From: Eledone cirrhosa
Lineage: Eukaryota
DNA: 64,000 bases
Assembly (NCBI GenBank): GCA_964016885.1
Contig: OZ024742.1
Location: forward strand, 68,758,001-68,822,000
Direction of reading: 5' to 3'
Shown: positions 7,626-58,852 of the stretch, piece after piece
Layout of the letters: every line of letters begins with the position of its first letter
Numbering within the stretch: the stretch's first letter is position 1
Translations under genes and position numbers: made by a program
The notes under the pieces: generated by a model
Database searches by the model: none
Told to the model about the DNA's origin: nothing
What the model saw: the letters and a program-made list of their open reading frames with translations, nothing else

Positions 7626-8615
7626 GGTAATATAACAAAAGCCTCTAATCCACCATGTAAGGAGCTCATGTTGGTGTCATGACAAAAGAGCACCTAGTCC
7701 CCCCTGCAATGTGGTCTTGCTGGTTACATGAAAAATAAGCATCCAGTTCACTCTGTAAGATGGTCATATTGGTGTCACAACAGGAGGCATCCATTCCACT
7801 CTGTAAAGTGGTTGTGTTGGTGGCATGACAGATGGCGCCTGGTTCACCCTGTAGCATGGTCGAGTTGGTGACATGACAAAGAGTGTCCACTCTGTTCTAT
7901 AAGGTGGGCATGTTGGTGACACAACAAAAGCACTCAGACCACCCTGTAGGGTGGTCATGTTGGTGAAATGACAAACACCCAGTCCACTCTGGAAAGTAGT
8001 TAGGTTGGTGACATGATAGAAGCACCCCGATCACCCTGTAAAATGATTGTGATATAACAGAAGCTCCCAGTTCAACCTATAAAGTGTTCGTGTTGCTGAA
8101 ATGTCACAAAGCACCTAGCTCACACAGTAAAATTGTAGTGTTGGTGTCACAACAAAATGCACCCAGTCTGCACTGTAAAGTGGTTGTGTTGGTGTCACAA
8201 CAAAAAGATCCAACTTCACACTAAAGTGGTTGTGTTAGTATCATGACAAAAAGTCCCCAATCCACACCATAAAGTGGTCGTGTTGGTGTCATGACAAAAA
8301 GCCCCCAATCTACACTGTAAAGTGGTCATGTTGGTGTCACGATAAAAAGCACCCAGTCCACACTGTAAAGCAGTTGTGATGGTGTCACAAAAGGCAGCCA
8401 GTTGACAATGTAAAGTGGCTATTTTCGTGCTACAATAAAAATCACCCAGTCTACACAGTAAATGTGGTAGGCATCCAGGTGTAGAAACTAAGCCAGAAAT
8501 AGTTCTATATGAGCAAGACACATTCATCTGATCTGACTTGTCCCACAACGGGTCAACTCATTTAACCCATTCTAATATGGAAAAATGGACATAAAACAGA
8601 TGATGATGACGATGA
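7625..8615 (+). repeat. ~48-bp tandem array (about 17-18 degenerate units) of an RTE 3'-UTR unit, ending in an RTE-A tail
   Basis: Unit cacccagtccacactgtaaagtggttgtgttggtgtcacaacaaaaag repeats over 7625-8460, followed by ggcatccag.tgtagaaa and a (GAT)n tail at 8600. Confidence 0.85.
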
Positions 8616-37087: not shown

Positions 37088-37145
37088 TCTGAATTTGGCA
37101 ACATGACCCTCCCAAAGTATAACAATATATATATATATATATATA

Positions 37146-37554
37146 GAAAGGATAAAAAGGATGATTGATTATTCCTTCATTGCATTTATTGATAGGTGAC
37201 GCGCGTTTCGCCACTGATCAGCTCAAGGTTCGATCTATATCGATCCTACCCGACTCAATAATCGGCAGCTCGACGGACCCTCTTAAAATGCTATAAGAAA
37301 ATGAAATACATGCTATGTGGTAAAGTCAGAGATTCAAGAGTTTGACAAAATGAGTTGTTTTGATTGGTGGGAAGGATCAAGGCGATGTACTGGCCTGTAG
37401 TGGATATGGGGGTGGGTGTGATGGTGAGATGGTGACGGTCGGTGGATGAGATGGGCTGTGGTGTGGTGGTGGTGGTGAGTTGGCCTTGGCGTGTGAACCT
37501 AAACATCGAGTGCTCTCCCGGGTGAACCTGCAGTAACTCCTAGTTACACCCCCT

Positions 37555-37556
<2 letters not shown>
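37146..37556 (-). mobile_element. Short TA-flanked PLE-type terminal module with degenerate hammerhead (37195-37279)
   Basis: Minus strand reads ggt-CCGTCGA-...-ggc-GAAAC-gcgc-GTC-acc, then tatc and AATAAA; (TA)n on both sides. Confidence 0.5.

Positions 37557-37590
<34 letters not shown>

Positions 37591-38403: not shown

Positions 38404-38437
<34 letters not shown>
38285..38437. repeat. (TATC)n/(TA)n compound microsatellite
   Basis: Directly visible. Confidence 0.95.
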
Positions 38438-38440
<3 letters not shown>

Positions 38441-40416
38441 AAATAAAGATCCGAAGGCATGGTATAAATTTCAAGAGATAGATCGATAAGGTTTCAAGAG
38501 ATAGATCGATCGTGTAGCCATGATCGATTATCACTGATCTCGTCAGGTGAAAATGCATTGTCTACAAATCCTTGATATGAGGGAGAAAATTAACAATGTT
38601 CACTCACAGGGTTTAGTCCCTCATATGAAGATTAGGGTCATAAAACTATCAAGTCTCTATCTCCCAATAGATGTAAAAGACGCTGGACATCAATCAAATC
38701 CGTAGAATTACAGTCGGTCACAGTTAATGTGAGTGGGTATACACACACTCACACACACCGACGCGAGGTCAAAGAAAAAATATATATATACAAACATAGC
38801 ATCAAATCTGTAGAACTATAGACGGTCACAGTTAGTATAAGTGAGTATACACACACTCACACACACCGACGCGAGGTTAAAGAAAAAATATAAATATACC
38901 AACATAGTATTCGCCGAAATGTTATATTGGTCAAATCTCAATTTGCCGATGTGAATTGGAAAATTTGAGTCAACCGCAACCCTATACACACGCAAGTAAG
39001 TTCAGTTCAATGTTCTGCTATACGTGTATAGATTGAATTGTAACATCCATATCTCCAAATAGTGTATGTTATGCTATATACACATCCGTATCGTCCAAAA
39101 AAGTGTATGTTATGGTATATACACATCCATGTGAAGATCAAGTAGTCAGCTCATATCGAACTCAGTATGTGCCGTTGTCCCATTGAGAATCTGAGTCCCC
39201 AAATCTGTGCGTGCAAGCAACCGCTATGTAGGCCACCAAGGGGCTCTGTGTTGGGTTGGGTATTTGGATTAAGGTGTCAGTATGTGCAATTTCCCTTGGG
39301 CTTTTAAGATAGGTGTGAGTCGTGGAGGTGTTATCCAACACAAAAGGTAAAATATAATAACAAAGAATAGCAAAACCCAGAGGATGTGTGTAGGCCCATT
39401 AATGGTGTGTAAGTATTATTGTCCAATCTGTAACCGTGAGCACTCCATGGTTAGATGATCACGGATCAAAACCTCGTGTAGTGTTCAATCGATAGGAACG
39501 TGACCAGTAATAACTGTGGGAACTCAGTGTCTAAAGAAACCGGGTACTGTGTGTAGAGTTATGTATAGAGAGCATAATCGGTCTTAACTGAGTGTGTAAT
39601 ACGTCTAGCTATATCATAACCGAGAGAACTCAATTGTTAGCGTATCCTAAAGTAATGGTGAATGCGCGTAATCGGTCTTACCCGAGTGTGTAATTATTCT
39701 AACTATTTACTATAGCTTAGCTATACTAGTGGTCAGGCCAGTGGAGTAAGGGAGGTTATACCACAGGATTTTTCTGGTCCGATGCCTCTTGTTCTTACTA
39801 TCTATACAAGAGTTACCTGTCTCCTTAGTAGCTACTGGTCTATTATAACTGAAAACTGCCTGTGGGTTGATGGTGTCCTGGGGTGTCCCGATTGTGTTCG
39901 GAATTGTCCCGCCTCCGGGGCGGTGTACCCCCTGTGCAGCTATTGGGATTACCCTCGATAGCTGGGGTTATATCCACTATGCGCCTGCTACATTTATCCC
40001 TATTCCCTCTACCTGACCCTCGTTCCATTTTATGTTCAATGGTTGTTTTATCAGTTCTACAATTAAGGTTACAATTAGAGTTTCCGTTGGTATTACGGTG
40101 CTCAGACCCTGTGTTTGTACCTGGGTGATTGTTTCCATTGGTGCCATCAACATTGGGACTAGGAGGCAATACACCATGAAGTCTATATTGATCCTCCCTA
40201 GCATCCCGCCTGCTGTTAACTAAAGTGTCACTATTTTGGCCTAAGCTATCGCAGGCAATGTTGCTACTACTATTTAATGGACGTTTGAAGGAGATTCCCT
40301 CGCTATGCCGCGGATAGAGTAACCTATGACGACTTGATAATCAGAGAACTTAGAAAAGCTACAAAAAAACTACACGGGCCAACCTGGATTTAATCAACAC
40401 GGAGGCCAATAGCGTC

Positions 40417-41370
40417 ATGACTAAACTGGGTATTGAAGATAAAACTGAACCCTTCCATCCTAGAATTCCGACGATTTTATTGAAAGACCATAAATTAAAC
40501 TTTGAATCATCAAGACCTGTCAGGCTGATAGCCCCTTCGAAGTTGGACATAGGAATCGTGAGTAAAAACATCCTTGATAAAATAATCCCCACTCTAGTTA
40601 GGAGATCGAAGCTTAAATTATGGTCAGGAACTAGTGAGGTAATTAACTGGTTTGAGAAATCGCAGAATAAGAATAGCACTAAGGTTATACAGTTCGATAT
40701 CTCGAACTACTACTCTTTGATCTCTCCAACTCTTCTAGGTAAGGCCCTAAACTTTGCTAGCTTACACACCAACCTTACATCTGAAGAAATTAACATTATT
40801 CTCCTAGCTAGGAAAACCTTAATTGAGTTCAACGGTGACTTGTGGACCAGGAAAGATTGGCTGGACAATTTCGACATCACCATGGGATCCACGGACTCGG
40901 CCCAGGTGACGGGTCTGGTGGGCCTTTACTTCCTCAACTGTCTCGGAGTGGAAATGCCCCACTTGGGAGGTGGCGCTTACCGTGACGATGTTTTGTTTAC
41001 TGTGTTGTTCCATAATAATAGTATGGTAGAGAGGGTGAGGAAAAAACTAAGCAAATTCTTCAACAACATAGACCTAAGTATAGTGTTTGAAGAAAACCTG
41101 AAGATAGTTAATTTTCTAGATGTTACACTTAACCTCAATTCAAGACTCTTCCCACCCTACCACAAACCCAACGAAAATTTAAATTATGTCAATGAAAAAT
41201 CGAACCACCCTAGAATAGTCACTAACGGTATTACCAAAAGCGACTCTAGTAGAATTTCAGGACTATCTTCCAATGAAGATACCTTTGATAGGATCTCGAA
41301 TTACTATAATAGCGCACTGGAACGCGCGGGGCATAGCGAGGGAAGGAAATCTCATTCAAACGTCCATTAA
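40417..41370 (+). CDS. Penelope-like reverse transcriptase (5'-truncated, probably non-functional)
   Basis: 317-aa ORF with KDHK..F....VRLI, FDISNYY, MGS.DSA, YRDD, VNFLDVTLNL and YHKPN...YV...SNHP. Confidence 0.9.
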   Translation: MTKLGIEDKTEPFHPRIPTILLKDHKLNFESSRPVRLIAPSKLDIGIVSKNILDKIIPTLVRRSKLKLWSGTSEVINWFEKSQNKNSTKVIQFDISNYYSLISPTLLGKALNFASLHTNLTSEEINIILLARKTLIEFNGDLWTRKDWLDNFDITMGSTDSAQVTGLVGLYFLNCLGVEMPHLGGGAYRDDVLFTVLFHNNSMVERVRKKLSKFFNNIDLSIVFEENLKIVNFLDVTLNLNSRLFPPYHKPNENLNYVNEKSNHPRIVTNGITKSDSSRISGLSSNEDTFDRISNYYNSALERAGHSEGRKSHSNVH

Positions 41371-41859
41371 ATAGTAGTAGCAACATTGCTTGCGATAGCT
41401 TAGGCCAAAATAGTGACACTTTAGTTAACAGCAGGCGCAATGCGAGGGAGGATCAATATAGACTTCATGTTGTATTGCCTCCTAGTCCCAATGTCGATGG
41501 TACCAATGGAAACAATCACCCAGGTACAAACACGGAGTCTGAGCACCGTAATGCCAGCGGAAACTCTAATTGTAACCTTAATTGTAGGACTGATAAAACA
41601 ACCGTTGAACGTAAAATGGAACGAGGGTCGGGTAGAGGGAATAGGATAAATGTAGCAGGCGCATAGTGGATATAACCCCAGCTATCGAGGGTAATCCCAA
41701 TAGCTGCACGGGGGGGGGGTACACCGCCCCAGAGAGAGGGGACGATACCGAACACAATCGGGACACCCCAGGACACCATCGACCCACAGGCAGTTTTCAG
41801 ATATAATAGACCAGTAGCTACTAAGGAGACAGGTAACTCTAGTATAGATAGTAAGAACG

Positions 41860-42620
41860 AGAGGCATCGGACCAGAAAAATCCTGTGGTATAAGCCCCCT
41901 TACTCCACTGGCCTGACCACTAGTATAGCTAAGGTTTTCTTTAGGGCCTTAGACAAATGCTTCCCTAGATCACACAGATACTATAAAATATTCAATAGGA
42001 ATACCATTAAGCTGTCCTACCCCACAACCAGTAACATAGCTCAGAATATAGCTAAGATGAATTATAGTAGACTTAGGACAGCCCAAGGCGGGATGAGACA
42101 TGGCAGAACTAATGGCAGCTCTATAGATGAACGGACTCATACACGTGAGGCGAGTCGGGTCACCCCAACTCCTGCGAACTTACCCATAGAGCAGACAAGA
42201 ACTGAGACCCGACCCCAGAGGTACCGTTGTTCCTCTGGAACTACATAGGTCGATAACAGAAAATGTAATTGCAGGAACACCGCCACGTGCTCCATGGCTG
42301 GGAAATGCCTCACCAAAAACATAGTCTACGACTGTAAGGTCTCCACTTTAGATAGAATCTTCAGGTATGTTGGGGCAACTGCCACTGAATTTAAGGATAG
42401 ATGGTATAATCACCACCATACCTTTAATAGATTAGATTAAAAAATAGCATGGCGCTTTCTGAATTAGTCTGGAAGCTTAAACAACAGAATATAGAGCACT
42501 CTTTATCCTGGTCCATAATTTGCTCAGCCATATAACGGCAGCACTAGCGTCTGTAATTTATGTATAGCTAAAACATTTAATATTATTAGAGGCAGCCCCC
42601 TATTAATCAATAGGAGATCT
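41860..42620 (+). pseudogene. PLE linker and GIY-YIG endonuclease (Nematis-like CNCR..C..GKC type), disrupted
   Basis: RKILWYKPPYS...KIFNRNTIKLSY, then KCNCRNTATCSMAGKCLTKNIVYDCKV..RYVGATATEFKDRWYNHHHTF at ~42261-42425, then W.LK and CNLC. The clade assignment is from memory. Confidence 0.85.
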
Positions 42621-43869
42621 TTTCAGATTTTTTCAGCAACTGCCAACATAGAACCTCAAAAACTTCCGCAGGATTTTTGGAAAGTAACTTACCACTAACT
42701 CCTCCCTCTCTACCTTAGCCATAGAGTTCTCTCAATTAGCAAAAAACAGACAATCACACACTCAGGTAGTTAGACAGCTAAGATCGTTTGCGCACTTACA
42801 AACGGTACTCGGCCTGTTTCCACAAAGTTGTCACAGCTGAGTGCACATTAGAATACCTAGTTAGTAAATAGTTAGAATGATTACACACTCAGGTAAGACC
42901 GATTACGCGCATTCACCATTACTTTAGGATACGCTAACCATTGAGTTCTCTCGGTTATGATATAGCTAGACGTATTACACACTCAGTTAAGACTGATTAT
43001 GCTCTCTATACATAACTCTACACACAGTACCCGGTTTCTTTAGACACTGAGTTCCCACAGTTATTACTGGTCACGTTCCTATCGATTGAACACTACACTA
43101 GGTTTTGATCCGTGATCATCTAACCATGGAGTGCTCACGGTTACTGATTGGACAATATTATTTACACACCATTAATGGGCCTACACACATCCTCTGGGTT
43201 TTGCTATTCTTTGTTATTATATTTTACCTTTTGTGTTGGATAGCACACCCCCACCACTCAAACACCTATCTTAAAAGCCCAAGGGCCCATATGACGGGAA
43301 ATCGCACATACTGACACCTTAACCCAAATACCCAACCCAACACAGAGCCCCTTGGTGGCCTACATAGTGGTTGCTTGCACACACAGATTTGGGGACTCAG
43401 ATTCTCAATGGGACAACGGCACATGCTGAGTTCGATATGAGCTGACTACTTGCTCTTCACATGGATGTGTATATACCATAACATACACTATTTGGAGATA
43501 CGGATGTTACAATTCAATCTATACACGTTTAGCAGAACATTGAACTGAACTTACTTGCGTGTGTATAGGGTTGCGGTTGACCCAATTTTTCCAACTCTTT
43601 TGGATAGCAGAACATTGAACTGAACTTACTGATCAGTGATAATCGATCATGACTATACGATTGATCTATCTCTTATTGAAACATGTGTCGTGATTAAAAT
43701 GATTGGAAATGTATACCATTCCTTCGGATCTTTATTTTGATATAAATACTCCGTTTTACATCATCTAGCTGTTCCCATAAATGGAATTGGAGATATACAA
43801 AAGTGTGGAGAACTTAATATTGCTAACAAATTTATTGGACCTTTTGGCACAACTAATAATACACTTTAC

Positions 43870-44097
43870 TAAATAACATAGTCCACGCTGTAATGTGGCC
43901 GTGTAGGCAACACGGTAAAAACCTCCCAGCCCCACACTGTAAATGTGGTTGGTGTTAGGAAGGGCATCCAACTGTAGAAAACCCGCCAGACAGTCCTATG
44001 CGAGCAAGACAACCACTCTTGCCTCAAGTGGGAAAACTCCCGTCCAAACCCATGCAAGCGTGGAACATGGACGTTAAACGATGATGATGATGATGAT
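43870..44097 (+). mobile_element. RTE lineage-A 3' UTR fragment
   Basis: Matches 35620-35843; (GAT)n tail. Confidence 0.85.
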
Positions 44098-44487: not shown

Positions 44488-44553
44488 TATATATATATAT
44501 ATGTATATCACAGAAAAAAAGAGAATCAGTGTTGCGACGAATGGAATTTATTG

Positions 44554-44649
44554 GACATATTACAATCGTTTCTCTGGCGACCAGCTCGAGGCATGATCGA
44601 TTTGATGATCGAACCTGACTCTGAAAATCGCACGGTCCTCAGATACATC
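44554..44649 (-). ncRNA. Type I hammerhead ribozyme motif with extended stem II
   Basis: Minus strand: stem I gatgtat/atatgtc (7 bp with G-U pairs), CTGAGGA, long stem II, GAAAC-gatt-GTA, and AATAAA just downstream. The base of stem II is mismatched. Confidence 0.65.
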
Positions 44650-44683
44650 TTGATTCTACAAAACAGATTTTCCTATATATATA

Positions 44684-45530
44684 CAGGGTGCGGACGATAT
44701 TTGTTCGCAATTTTCAACTGTTAATTTTATGCAAATTTTTTTTACTTCTGTTGTCACTCTTGTTTTCATAAAAACAGTGACTATATTTCCATTATTTATT
44801 TTCAGAATAATTGATTATGAATAATTTTGAACCTCCAAATTTGAATCCGCGCCGGGAGGACAAATAAGACCAGAAGATCAACTCCCAGAACAACAGGTAG
44901 CTCGCCGTCTCATCCAAAGACGTGCCCAGAGTCATGCAGACAAAGTTTCCAGCGACAGCATTGGTCTTAGGTGTTGTCAGCAGTCAAGGTGACGTCATAC
45001 CACCTCACTTCTTCCCTGAGGGCCTCAAGCTGAACACCGATGGCTACATCCGCGTTCTGAGCGAGGTAGTAAAGCCCTGGATCGACCAGGTAGCTGCAGG
45101 TAAGCCGTACGTGTGGCAGCAAGACTCAGCGCCCTGCCATACCAGCCGAAAGACCCAAGCCTGGCTGTCAGAGAACTTCGTCGACCACACTTCACCTGAC
45201 ATCTGGCCTCCCAGCTTGCCTGACTGCAACCCCCTCGACTTCTTTGTGTGGGGCGCAGTGGAACGAGACACCAACAGATCTAGCTGCAATACGAAAGACG
45301 ATCTGAAGGCCAGGATCACAAGTCGGGGACAGTGACGAAGGCCTGTAGCCGGTTCCGAGGCCACCTTGAGGCCGTCATCAAAGCCAATGGCAGGTTTATC
45401 GAGTGAGATCGAAAGAACACATCATGAAGACTAACTGACCCAAATTTGATAAATAAATCTTTAAAAATATAACTACTGTGTTATTTTTTCCTAGATAGTA
45501 ATCTTGCAAACAAATATCGTCCGCACCCTG
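44684..45530 (+). mobile_element. Internally deleted maT (DD37D) Tc1/mariner transposon
   Basis: TIRs cagggtgcggacgatatttgtt.gcaa at 44684 and inverted ending at 45530; TA context. ORF 44922-45335 has QQD-x37-D (WPPSLPDCNPLD). Confidence 0.92.
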
Positions 45531-48049: not shown

Positions 48050-48850
48050 GAAGCTACCTAGAATTATCTTGCATATCACTTGAGGAAAGTTCCCAATGTT
48101 AGGTGTAGATAAGCACCAAAGAAGTCTGCCCCTCTGTTAATTAGTTGTGGTCTATGTTTAAGGATTTCACTTATAGATTACATATAGAGAACTGACCACA
48201 GTCAGAGGGCATCTCATGTACCTTAGACCATTTAAGTGAATACTGCATTCCATTTACTTTGAGCTTCCATATTAGCTCAAAGTGGGCTGTGCATTTGCAC
48301 TTCTACTCCTTTTTAAAGGTGTGGCAGTGGTTATACCAATGGTCCTTAAATGTGGTCGATGTCATCCAACATATGTGTATGTCAAGCTGTTGGTGGTAAC
48401 CCAACATTGGTATACCATATTCTTACAAAGGCATTCATCATCCAGTGGGCATGCATTGGGGTTCCTGCAGTTACACTGCCTGTTCATCCAAGGTGGGTTG
48501 GTCTCTGTTGGGTCTGTATAGCTTGGCCCAATTCCTCAGTTTACTTTTCACAGCATCACTAGTGTGTATAGCTCTATTGGATATAGTCTGGTTCATGTTA
48601 ATAATGTCTAGTTTGTGTCTATGGTTCCTTCACCTAGCATTATTAATTCTAGCTATGTATTGGGCTAAGTTGCAGGTCTATATGAGGGCTTAATTGTGTG
48701 TCTATTAAATATAATGTAGTACCTAAGTGTCCTACGGAAACATCTGTCAAACACTTTGAAGAAAGCTTACAACATTGGTCCGGAATCCTGCTGAATATCG
48801 TGGATTATTTTTTTGTATTAATTTCTTTTGTTGGTGGGCCTATGTAATGC
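48050..48850 (-). pseudogene. Older Penelope-like relic (linker + GIY-YIG)
   Basis: Minus strand CNCRNPNACPLDDECLCKNMVYQCWV..TYVG..TTFKDHWYNH and RYYIIFNRHTIKPSY are homologous to 41860-42425. Confidence 0.8.
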
Positions 48851-58224: not shown

Positions 58225-58539
58225 AGTGTGAATGCATTTGAATGAGCATGCAGACAGCATAACTATGGTCTGACTGCAGCTGTGAGCAGGTGTGCAGGCG
58301 TGTTTAGACATTAACCGGCAATTGAAATCCTAACAACGGAGAAACCCACAGTCAACTGGGTCAAGGACATTTCAAGCGCAGCCAGTTAGAATCTTGTCTT
58401 TCCTTCACCGATAACAATGCATTTCATGTCTGAAATTATTGACTCAACCCTAACGAGTTAACACTATATAGGTCTATTTTATTCCCTATTGTATAAATAA
58501 TATTACAAATAAAAAAAAAGAAAGAAAAACAAAGAAGCG

Positions 58540-58852
58540 GGTAGCACACACATCTAGGACCACATACAACACATAAGCAGGTAGCACACATATCTAGGAC
58601 CACACACAACACAACCAGATAATACACACATCTAGGACCACATACAACACATAAGCAGGTAATACACACATCTAGGACCACATGCAACACATAAGAAGGT
58701 ACACACACATCTAGGACCACATAGAACACACAGGTAGGTAATACATACATTTAGGACCACATACAACACATAAGCAGGTAATACAAACATCTAGGACCAC
58801 ATACAACACATAATCAGGTAATACATACATTTAGGACCAAATACAACACACA
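58540..58852. repeat. ~38-bp minisatellite, about 8 copies, inside the hAT element
   Basis: Unit acacatctaggaccacatacaacacataagcaggtaat. Confidence 0.9.

What the first reader, a model, noticed from the sequence alone, without database searches (positions are those of the whole stretch)
44554..44649. Hammerheads with a shared long stem II ending in a TCGAT...ATCGA hairpin
Three otherwise dissimilar motifs (44554-44649, 37195-37279, 38491-38550) have a 45-65 nt stem II instead of a short hairpin. Each has an apical GATC-rich palindrome: tcgat-catcaa-atcga, gatcgatatagatcga and atcgatc-N10-gatcgat. Conservation across divergent copies suggests a functional appendage, such as a dimerisation or kissing element or an RT recognition site. 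This is inference, and I do not recognise it as a named variant.
Basis: partly seen in the sequence, partly recalled or inferred. Interest (0 to 1): 0.7.

Follow-up and report, generated by a model that had tools for sequence, protein, structure and literature searches.

The report
Long-armed retrotransposon hammerheads with convergent core
The three motifs are hammerhead (predicted self-cutting) RNA folds at the ends of Penelope-like jumping genes; their long arm is real, but what is conserved in it is an internal loop that likely docks the element's own protein rather than the flagged GATC tip, and two lineages have separately changed the catalytic core to the same unusual sequence, which likely slows cutting.

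Summary
All three motifs lie on the minus strand in pseudo-LTRs of Hydra-clade Penelope-like retrotransposons (RT, CxCX5C linker, GIY-YIG). Each marks a high-copy family. The long stem II (63, 60, 47 nt) is real and covaries (22 of 32 pairs). The GATC reading fails: motifs 1 and 2 share it by descent, about 20 of 90 clade copies replace it, the loops are not self-complementary, and motif 3's GATC fits chance. The conserved part is a GAGUC/GAGC internal-loop module, more conserved than the 5' core strand (about 13,000 genome matches). Motif 2's family has core CCGUCGA (U4C plus A6U) in 81 of 100 copies and none canonical. A second lineage reached the same core through intermediates; one origin is rejected. 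Copies run past the predicted cut site, so they likely come from uncut RNA. Best reading: a weak, protein-assisted hammerhead with a docking arm. Cleavage is untested. The scan has noted long arms and U4C cores on other DNA of this genome. New variant of a known kind.

The parts
44500..44676 (-). F1: 5'-truncated solo pseudo-LTR of a Hydra-clade Penelope-like element, between TA repeats
   Evidence: EN C-terminus upstream of the same pLTR in L022/L092
44554..44649 (-). Motif 1: complete type I hammerhead; stem I 44643-44649 with 44554-44560, core CTGAGGA 44636-44642, GAAAC-stem III-GTA 44561-44572, predicted cut between 44561 and 44560
44573..44635 (-). Motif 1 stem II insert, 63 nt rod
44582..44623 (-). 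Conserved internal-loop module (5' strand 44614-44623, 3' strand 44582-44591) enclosing the GATC/GATC apex (44595-44610)
44547..44552 (-). AATAAA just 3' of stem I, followed by a T-rich tract; candidate poly(A) signal (inferred)
   Evidence: near-invariant in alignment A2
37141..37494 (-). F2: 5'-truncated 3' end of a young Hydra-clade element; a tail fragment follows at 37493-37563 (+)
   Evidence: full-length relatives L091, L267-L269
37191..37282 (-). Motif 2: type I hammerhead fold with variant core CCGTCGA (37270-37276; U4C and A6U), stem I 37277-37282 with 37191-37197, 60-nt stem II 37210-37269, palindromic stem III and GTC site 37198-37209
37219..37257 (-). Module and GATC apex of motif 2 (strands 37249-37257 and 37219-37228; apex 37232-37245)
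38430..40312 (-). F3: inverted 5'-side copy (pLTR, 3' UTR and part of the ORF) of the element whose ORF follows on the plus strand
38491..38555 (-). Motif 3: stem I 5' strand 38547-38555, core CTGACGA 38540-38546, apex hairpin 38505-38528, GAAAC 38491-38495; stem III and cut site lost in this copy
40354..41370 (+). RT of F3 (53% identical to the F2 RT over 284 aa), frame ends at 41370
41676..42660 (+). Linker (CxCX5C at about 42264-42290) and GIY-YIG endonuclease of F3, broken by stops and frameshifts; the end coordinate is approximate
43631..43878 (+). 3' pLTR of F3: fourth motif copy with stem II, stem III, GTC site and tail, but 5' core strand deleted

Best explanation
The motifs are type I hammerhead folds in the pseudo-LTRs of Hydra-clade Penelope-like retrotransposons, and in the clade of motifs 1 and 2 the long stem II carries a conserved internal-loop module that likely serves as a docking site for the element's own RT-endonuclease protein, while self-cleavage is likely weak. 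Shown: element context, rod structure with covariation, module conservation, replaceable apex, two origins of the CCGUCGA core, insertion ends 40-220 nt past the predicted cut site with a common cluster near +50. Inferred: the RNA is transcribed through the pLTR; the protein binds the hammerhead domain and starts reverse transcription in the tail, mostly about 50 nt downstream; cutting at the 3' hammerhead would part the tail from the body, so slower cores (U4C, then A6U) are tolerated or favoured; residual cutting needs the palindromic stem III of a second copy or protein help. The GATC tip is an inherited closing helix in motifs 1 and 2 and probably a chance likeness in motif 3.
For: Context: L091 and L267-L269 are pLTR-ORF-3'UTR-pLTR elements with DKT, RWR and CxCX5C motifs; F3's ORF is in the window. 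Structure: on 13 subfamily rows, 83.8% of cells pair against 73.2% shuffled, 22 of 32 pairs change on both sides, 0 of 500 shuffles reach this, slid controls 28-34%; RNAalifold finds the module unaided. Module identity 0.81/0.84 against 0.45-0.56 for stems, 0.71 for the 5' core strand, 0.40 for the loop (10 of 13 rows), while F1 and F2 EN C-termini are 40% identical over 62 aa. Genome count 13,976 against 641 control. Uncut template: 84 of 84 scored copies (biased by the query) and 55 of 55 off-centre copies (52 by rule, 3 by eye) continue past the cut site. Core: 81 of 100 F2 copies CCGTCGA, none CTGANGA; second lineage 51 of 100, with 4 CCGAGGA and 1 CCGACGA; single origin rejected, p-AU 7e-7 and 8e-38. 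PMC11167929 (passages): a PLE hammerhead cut only with protein, and dead mutants still inserted.
Against: No binding or cleavage datum exists. The pair test used a structure I drew from these same related sequences, and several rows are single, possibly decayed copies. Whole-motif MFE folds of F1 and F2 do not give the rod, and 4 of 13 inserts with a core match have z weaker than -1.3. The module is absent from F3 and from the other long-arm families, so it is not a general Hydra requirement. Module conservation fits a tertiary contact or a DNA promoter element equally. A short core transfer between lineages cannot be excluded. Trees rest on 135-218 columns. All four full-length F2 copies seen have frame breaks.
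Confidence: 0.55

Rival explanations
1. The module is a tertiary docking surface for stem I or the AAUAAA tail, making an efficient ribozyme, and CCGUCGA is a working core in which a protonated C replaces U4 and A6U is a second-site adjustment.
For: C3, G5, GAAAC and U16.1 are invariant in 13 of 13 rows, and stems I and III keep covarying in CCG-core lineages. The same steps in two lineages suggest a structural rule. C can replace U in U-turns (PMC4105743 passages). U4C is viable in a viroid (PMC3088659).
Against: U4C 'considerably decreases' activity in vitro and changes at A6 give low activity (PMC3088659). No conserved base-paired contact between stem II and the tail was seen by eye in the alignments. 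Copies derive from uncut RNA.
Confidence: 0.2
2. The conserved letters act as DNA: an internal promoter element of the pLTR downstream of a start site, with the hairpin secondary.
For: 13 of 30 F1 copies begin at one point about 33 nt before the core. PLE pLTRs hold promoters (PMC6765202 passage). Several module pairs never vary, which says nothing about RNA pairing.
Against: Flanking pairs covary (C-G to U-A, A-U to G-C). Two separated strands face each other in the fold. The B-box-like stretch of motif 1 is not in motif 2.
Confidence: 0.12
3. Nothing in the arm is selected beyond a stable hairpin; module and core changes reflect descent and drift in a dispensable ribozyme.
For: Stem II length is a continuum of 9-115 nt in this genome and 28 of 114 sampled hammerheads have 41 nt or more. 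Subfamilies are related.
Against: Unpaired and bulged module positions are more conserved than neighbouring stems. Nine other core positions stay fixed along about 0.34 changes per column on the F2 branches (chance about 0.05, my arithmetic).
Confidence: 0.08
4. One reading: the apical GATC palindrome is a kissing or dimerisation element shared by three unrelated families.
For: About 70 of 90 clade copies belong to GATC-apex subfamilies with varied loops (hand count). F3 has it although its sequence does not align to the clade.
Against: GATC is paired; 7 of 8 loops have at most 2 self-complementary bases; stem II self-dimer gain (-1.0 to -8.6 kcal/mol) is no better than 13 control inserts (-2.6 to -11.6). 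About 20 of 90 copies and subfamilies C4, C5, L285, L286 replace it. A GATC helix has 3-5% chance per stem, about 35-55% over 15 families (my arithmetic).
Confidence: 0.05

Closest known systems
Hydra-clade Penelope-like elements and their hammerheads (Craig et al. 2021, PMC8557442; section 11, passages, supplement parts 1, 2, 52 of 59 seen)
   Same: C-terminal GIY-YIG, DKT and RW(K/R) motifs, CxCX5C linker, CxxC and CxH, (TA)n targets, inverted 5'-truncated copies, tails, type I hammerhead near the 3' end with a tiny stem III.
   Different: The 26 Hydra rows of File S2 have stem II of 3-7 bp (inserts up to about 26 nt) and all have CTGANGA. Here inserts are 47-63 nt, with an internal module and CCG cores, and the 3' UTR is about 2 kb. 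Two spike-moss PLE-X rows in the same file have inserts near 50 nt, so length alone has a precedent.
PLE minimal hammerheads (Cervera and de la Pena 2014, PMC4209133; parts 1-2 of 4 read)
   Same: pLTR location, palindromic stem III, dimer-type design, many solo copies, extra base at the foot of helix II.
   Different: Their 'larger' helix II is 7-8 bp; the core variant they report is U3-A8, not U4C/A6U.
Poseidon PAc of Anolis (PMC11167929; passages)
   Same: Hammerhead upstream of the ORF start region, tail defined by internal RT start sites, uncut RNA as template.
   Different: [quoted passage not shown]
Natural hammerhead core variants (Perreault et al. 2011, PMC3088659; section 8 and passages)
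   Same: Single U4C (viroid) and A6C (phage) cores exist and keep low activity.
   Different: No A6U and no U4C plus A6U double in its main text (0 occurrences of 'A6U'); supplements not read.

Membership tests
Type I hammerhead ribozyme | Core CUGANGA and GAAA with A15.1-U16.1 and NUH site | tested here: met
   Motif 1 and the F3 family
Type I hammerhead ribozyme | Canonical core in motif 2's family | tested here: not met
   CCGTCGA in 81 of 100, CTGANGA in 0 of 100
Type I hammerhead ribozyme | Complete three-stem junction in the window copy of motif 3 | tested here: not met
   stem III, cut site and stem I 3' strand replaced by a duplication
Type I hammerhead ribozyme | Three helices supported by covariation, stem I open | tested here: met
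   stem I 6 of 7 pairs, stem II 15 of 22, stem III 1 of 3 with change on both sides
Type I hammerhead ribozyme | Match to an Rfam hammerhead model | tested here: not met
   no hammerhead among 59 matches at E up to 1; long inserts probably defeat the models (inference)
Type I hammerhead ribozyme | Site-specific self-cleavage | not testable with these tools
   needs an assay
Hydra-clade PLE | RT followed by C-terminal GIY-YIG | tested here: met
   L091, L267-L269 (F2), window 40354-42660 (F3); F1 only by EN C-terminus. Pfam gave only a sub-threshold GIY-YIG hit on 1 of 3 proteins
Hydra-clade PLE | CxCX5C linker, DKT and RWK-like motifs, CxxC and CxH around E and N | tested here: met
   read in translations of F2 and linker of F3; linker not seen for F1
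Hydra-clade PLE | pLTRs, inverted 5'-truncated copies, tail, (TA)n targets | tested here: met
Hydra-clade PLE | RT tree placement among published Hydra families | not tested
   published sequences were only viewed; EN tree of local copies was unresolved
Naiad PLE with SECIS | N-terminal EN, in-frame UGA, SECIS in 3' UTR | tested here: not met
   EN is C-terminal; a 661-aa frame is open without UGA; the arm lacks a conserved AUGA/GA quartet and apical AA by eye
Non-LTR retrozyme | Tandem hammerhead-bearing units without ORF | tested here: not met
   no tandem array at the motifs; families have ORF-bearing parents

The most novel reading that the evidence does not exclude
CCGUCGA is a naturally selected, working alternative hammerhead core (C-turn plus U6), reached stepwise and independently at least twice in active retrotransposon lineages, and it is enabled or tuned by the GAGUC/GAGC module in the long stem II acting as a new tertiary or protein-docking element.
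Probability: 0.25. Interest if true: 0.78.

Novelty: new variant of a known kind. Interest (0 to 1): 0.52.

Why it matters
What hammerheads do for Penelope-like elements is open. This clade offers a natural series of cores in replicating families (CUGAGGA, CCGAGGA, CCGACGA, CCGUCGA) on a nearly constant scaffold, so cleavage rate can be measured against transposition success. The conserved stem II module is a defined candidate for the RNA site that the element's protein reads. Standard descriptors and Rfam miss these motifs, so hammerhead counts in such genomes are too low: 114 intact-core motifs in 800 kb sampled, against 1-4 in shuffles.

Tried and rejected
Rfam scan: no hammerhead. First strict scan, needing two closing pairs in stem II, found nothing; relaxing that found motif 1. 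Naiad/SECIS reading: rejected, EN is C-terminal. My first placement of motif 2's core (TTTAAGA) was wrong; alignment showed CCGTCGA. K-turn in the module: registers do not fit (by eye). Pseudoknot between stem II and the AATAAA tail: possible in F2 only, not conserved (by eye). Pol III B-box in motif 1: not in motif 2. Homology of F3 to the clade: local scores within shuffle range for 13 of 13 rows; only weak profile hits, E 0.3 and 0.8; EN tree unresolved. A 9-base pattern was too short to use (12,295 against 6,500 control). Sequencing runs: no RNA holder listed; contig overlays show the families in organism A and fragments in B and C but do not cover the core outside A well enough to read it. 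Dropped rows: clusters 0, 2, 6 before (chance, tandem or TA-run artefacts); L222 and L102 between alignments A2 and A3 (no readable core); 10 of the first 100 rows (9 belong to two unrelated repeats, checked at 5 places; 1 odd row unchecked). Lunse et al. 2017 on PLE hammerhead variants is not held and was seen only as cited in PMC6765202; it may list long arms or core variants. Literature searches that found no report of this arm, module or double core variant. Supplements of PMC3088659 and PMC4209133 were not read and could bear on novelty.

Full report
Observation. The three motifs are on the minus strand and carry the quoted GATC hairpins. Motif 1 is a complete type I hammerhead: 7-bp stem I, CTGAGGA, a 63-nt insert, GAAAC, a 3-bp stem III and a GTA site. 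It is the only hit of a strict scan of the window, and no shuffle of 30 gave a 7-bp stem I. Motif 2 has the same layout with the core CCGTCGA. Motif 3 has CTGACGA, but this copy lost stem III and the cut site; its family is intact. Rfam reports no hammerhead.

What they belong to. The genome is 3.0 Gb in 1796 contigs; that it is probably a cephalopod is my recall of its repeats, not a result. Each motif marks a repeat family: 1331, 2135 and 1304 first-look candidates, 40 scored each; all 40 F2 hits were 100% identical. Copies are 5'-truncated, sit in TA repeats, often have an inverted partner and end in tails of two lengths. [quoted passage not shown] F3's own RT and endonuclease lie in the window at 40354-42660, between an inverted copy and a partly deleted 3' pLTR. 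F1 is tied to an endonuclease C-terminus in L022/L092. These are the marks of the Hydra clade of Craig et al. 2021.

Is the long arm real? Motifs 1 and 2 are homologous and belong to a clade with at least seven multi-copy subfamilies. On 13 representatives, a structure I drew has 83.8% of cells paired and 22 of 32 pairs changed on both sides; 0 of 500 shuffles reach this and slid controls pair 28-34%. The rows are related and the structure came from them, so this is support, not a p-value. RNAalifold finds the upper half unaided. Against: whole-motif MFE folds of F1 and F2 differ from the rod. Long arms are common here. In 80 evenly spaced 10-kb stretches of four contigs, 114 intact-core hammerheads were found (1-4 in five shuffles), with inserts of 9-115 nt, 28 of them 41 nt or more.

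Is GATC the point? No. Mean identity between 10 subfamily rows is 0.81 and 0.84 for the two strands of an internal module (CAG-AG-UC facing GA-G-CUG, then a one-base bulge), 0.71 for the 5' core strand, 0.68 and 0.58 for GATC and 0.40 for the loop. A pattern for the module matches 13,976 places against 641 for the control. Of the first 100, 10 were set aside; by hand about 70 of 90 are GATC-apex types and about 20 are not. Of 19 long-insert clusters folded, 2 have a GATC/GATC helix, F1 and F3. F3 does not align to the clade better than shuffles, and a GATC helix has a 3-5% chance per stem. Loops are not self-complementary, and stem II dimers are no more favourable than controls; stem III is self-complementary in 11 of 14 rows, the known dimer feature (PMC4209133; PMC6765202).

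The core. With flanks fixed and the core left free, 81 of the first 100 of 391 F2 matches read CCGTCGA and none CTGANGA (hand count). In a second lineage, 51 of the first 100 of 1586 read CCGTCGA, 26 CTGANGA, 4 CCGAGGA and 1 CCGACGA (hand count). The CCGAGGA copies form their own subfamily; the single CCGACGA copy could be a back mutation. In the F2 lineage the relatives read CTGATGA (L262, one copy) and CCGACGA (21 of 33). Trees with the core removed reject one origin of CCGTCGA (p-AU 7e-7; 8e-38). A third U4C appears in an F1 relative (L255, one copy). C3, G5, GAAAC and U16.1 stay invariant, and stem I passes through a G-U to a G-C pair in the second lineage. A very short core transfer between lineages is not excluded. 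In print, U4C lowers activity yet allows viroid infection, and A6C is slow (PMC3088659); protonated C can replace U in U-turns (PMC4105743). Searches found no report of the double variant.

Mechanism. All 84 scored copies end 40-220 nt past the predicted cut, with a cluster near +50 in all three families and a second at about +130, +155 and +180 (the queries bias this). All 55 off-centre copies also continue. So the templates were likely uncut. This matches PAc, where the hammerhead cut only with protein, dead mutants still inserted and tails mark internal RT starts (PMC11167929). I infer a weak, assisted ribozyme whose fold and stem II module help load the element's protein (0.55). Rivals: an efficient ribozyme with the module as tertiary contact (0.2), a DNA promoter element (0.12), drift (0.08), GATC kissing (0.05).

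Comparison and verdict. Hammerheads in Hydra elements are known, with inserts up to about 26 nt and canonical cores in 26 rows of File S2; two plant PLE-X rows have inserts near 50 nt. Earlier notes of this scan describe long arms and C4 cores on other DNA of this genome; they are unchecked, and the findings here were tested independently, though the docking and uncut-RNA wording agrees with them. Added here: the GATC idea is refuted, the module is defined, and the double variant is shown to be convergent. Papers seen: PMC8557442 (abstract, section 11, passages, supplement parts 1, 2, 52), PMC4209133 (parts 1-2 of 4), PMC3088659 (section 8, passages), PMC11167929, PMC4105743 and PMC6765202 (passages), bioRxiv 2026.07.22.740005 (part 1 of 5). 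New variant of a known kind; interest 0.52.

Noticed in passing
window 40354-43878 (+) with 38430-40312 (-): A nearly whole, decayed Hydra-clade element (family F3) with a long inverted 5' copy; an internal stretch of the ORF region is repeated in inverted form.
   Followed up: partly
window 48180-48763 (-): Fragment of another Hydra-type linker and GIY-YIG endonuclease, 45% identical to F3's.
   Followed up: partly
window 44664-44675; L001-L030: 13 of 30 F1 copies begin at the same point about 33 nt before the core, and inversion joints in contigs map there too; candidate transcription start or RT run-off.
   Followed up: partly
L097-L176 (800 kb sample): Very dense type I hammerheads, about 1 per 7 kb, in some 40 clusters; inserts up to 115 nt, one branched (L194:1073-1174).
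   Followed up: partly
L285; L097:574-684: A common clade subfamily has an 8-letter core strand CTGAAAGA (one extra base) and an apex with an A-C mismatch; 13 of the first 100 module matches.
   Followed up: partly
window 44547-44552, 37185-37190; 43693-43698 (+): AATAAA or ATTAAA just after stem I, then a CA and a T-rich tract: poly(A)-site layout in all three families, although insertions run past it.
   Followed up: no
window 44901-45335 (+): Open frame resembling a Tc1/mariner DDE transposase fragment (likeness recalled, not tested).
   Followed up: no
window 7650-8468 and 58528-58852: Tandem arrays of 48-nt and 40-nt units; the first resembles part of an abundant dispersed repeat of the window.
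   Followed up: no
L026:3-554 and L089: Fragments of another PLE type (thumb, CX4CX2C-like linker, GIY-YIG) near Hydra copies.
   Followed up: no
L068 and L072: Helitron-like helicase and Rep frames beside F3 copies (likeness recalled, not tested).
   Followed up: no
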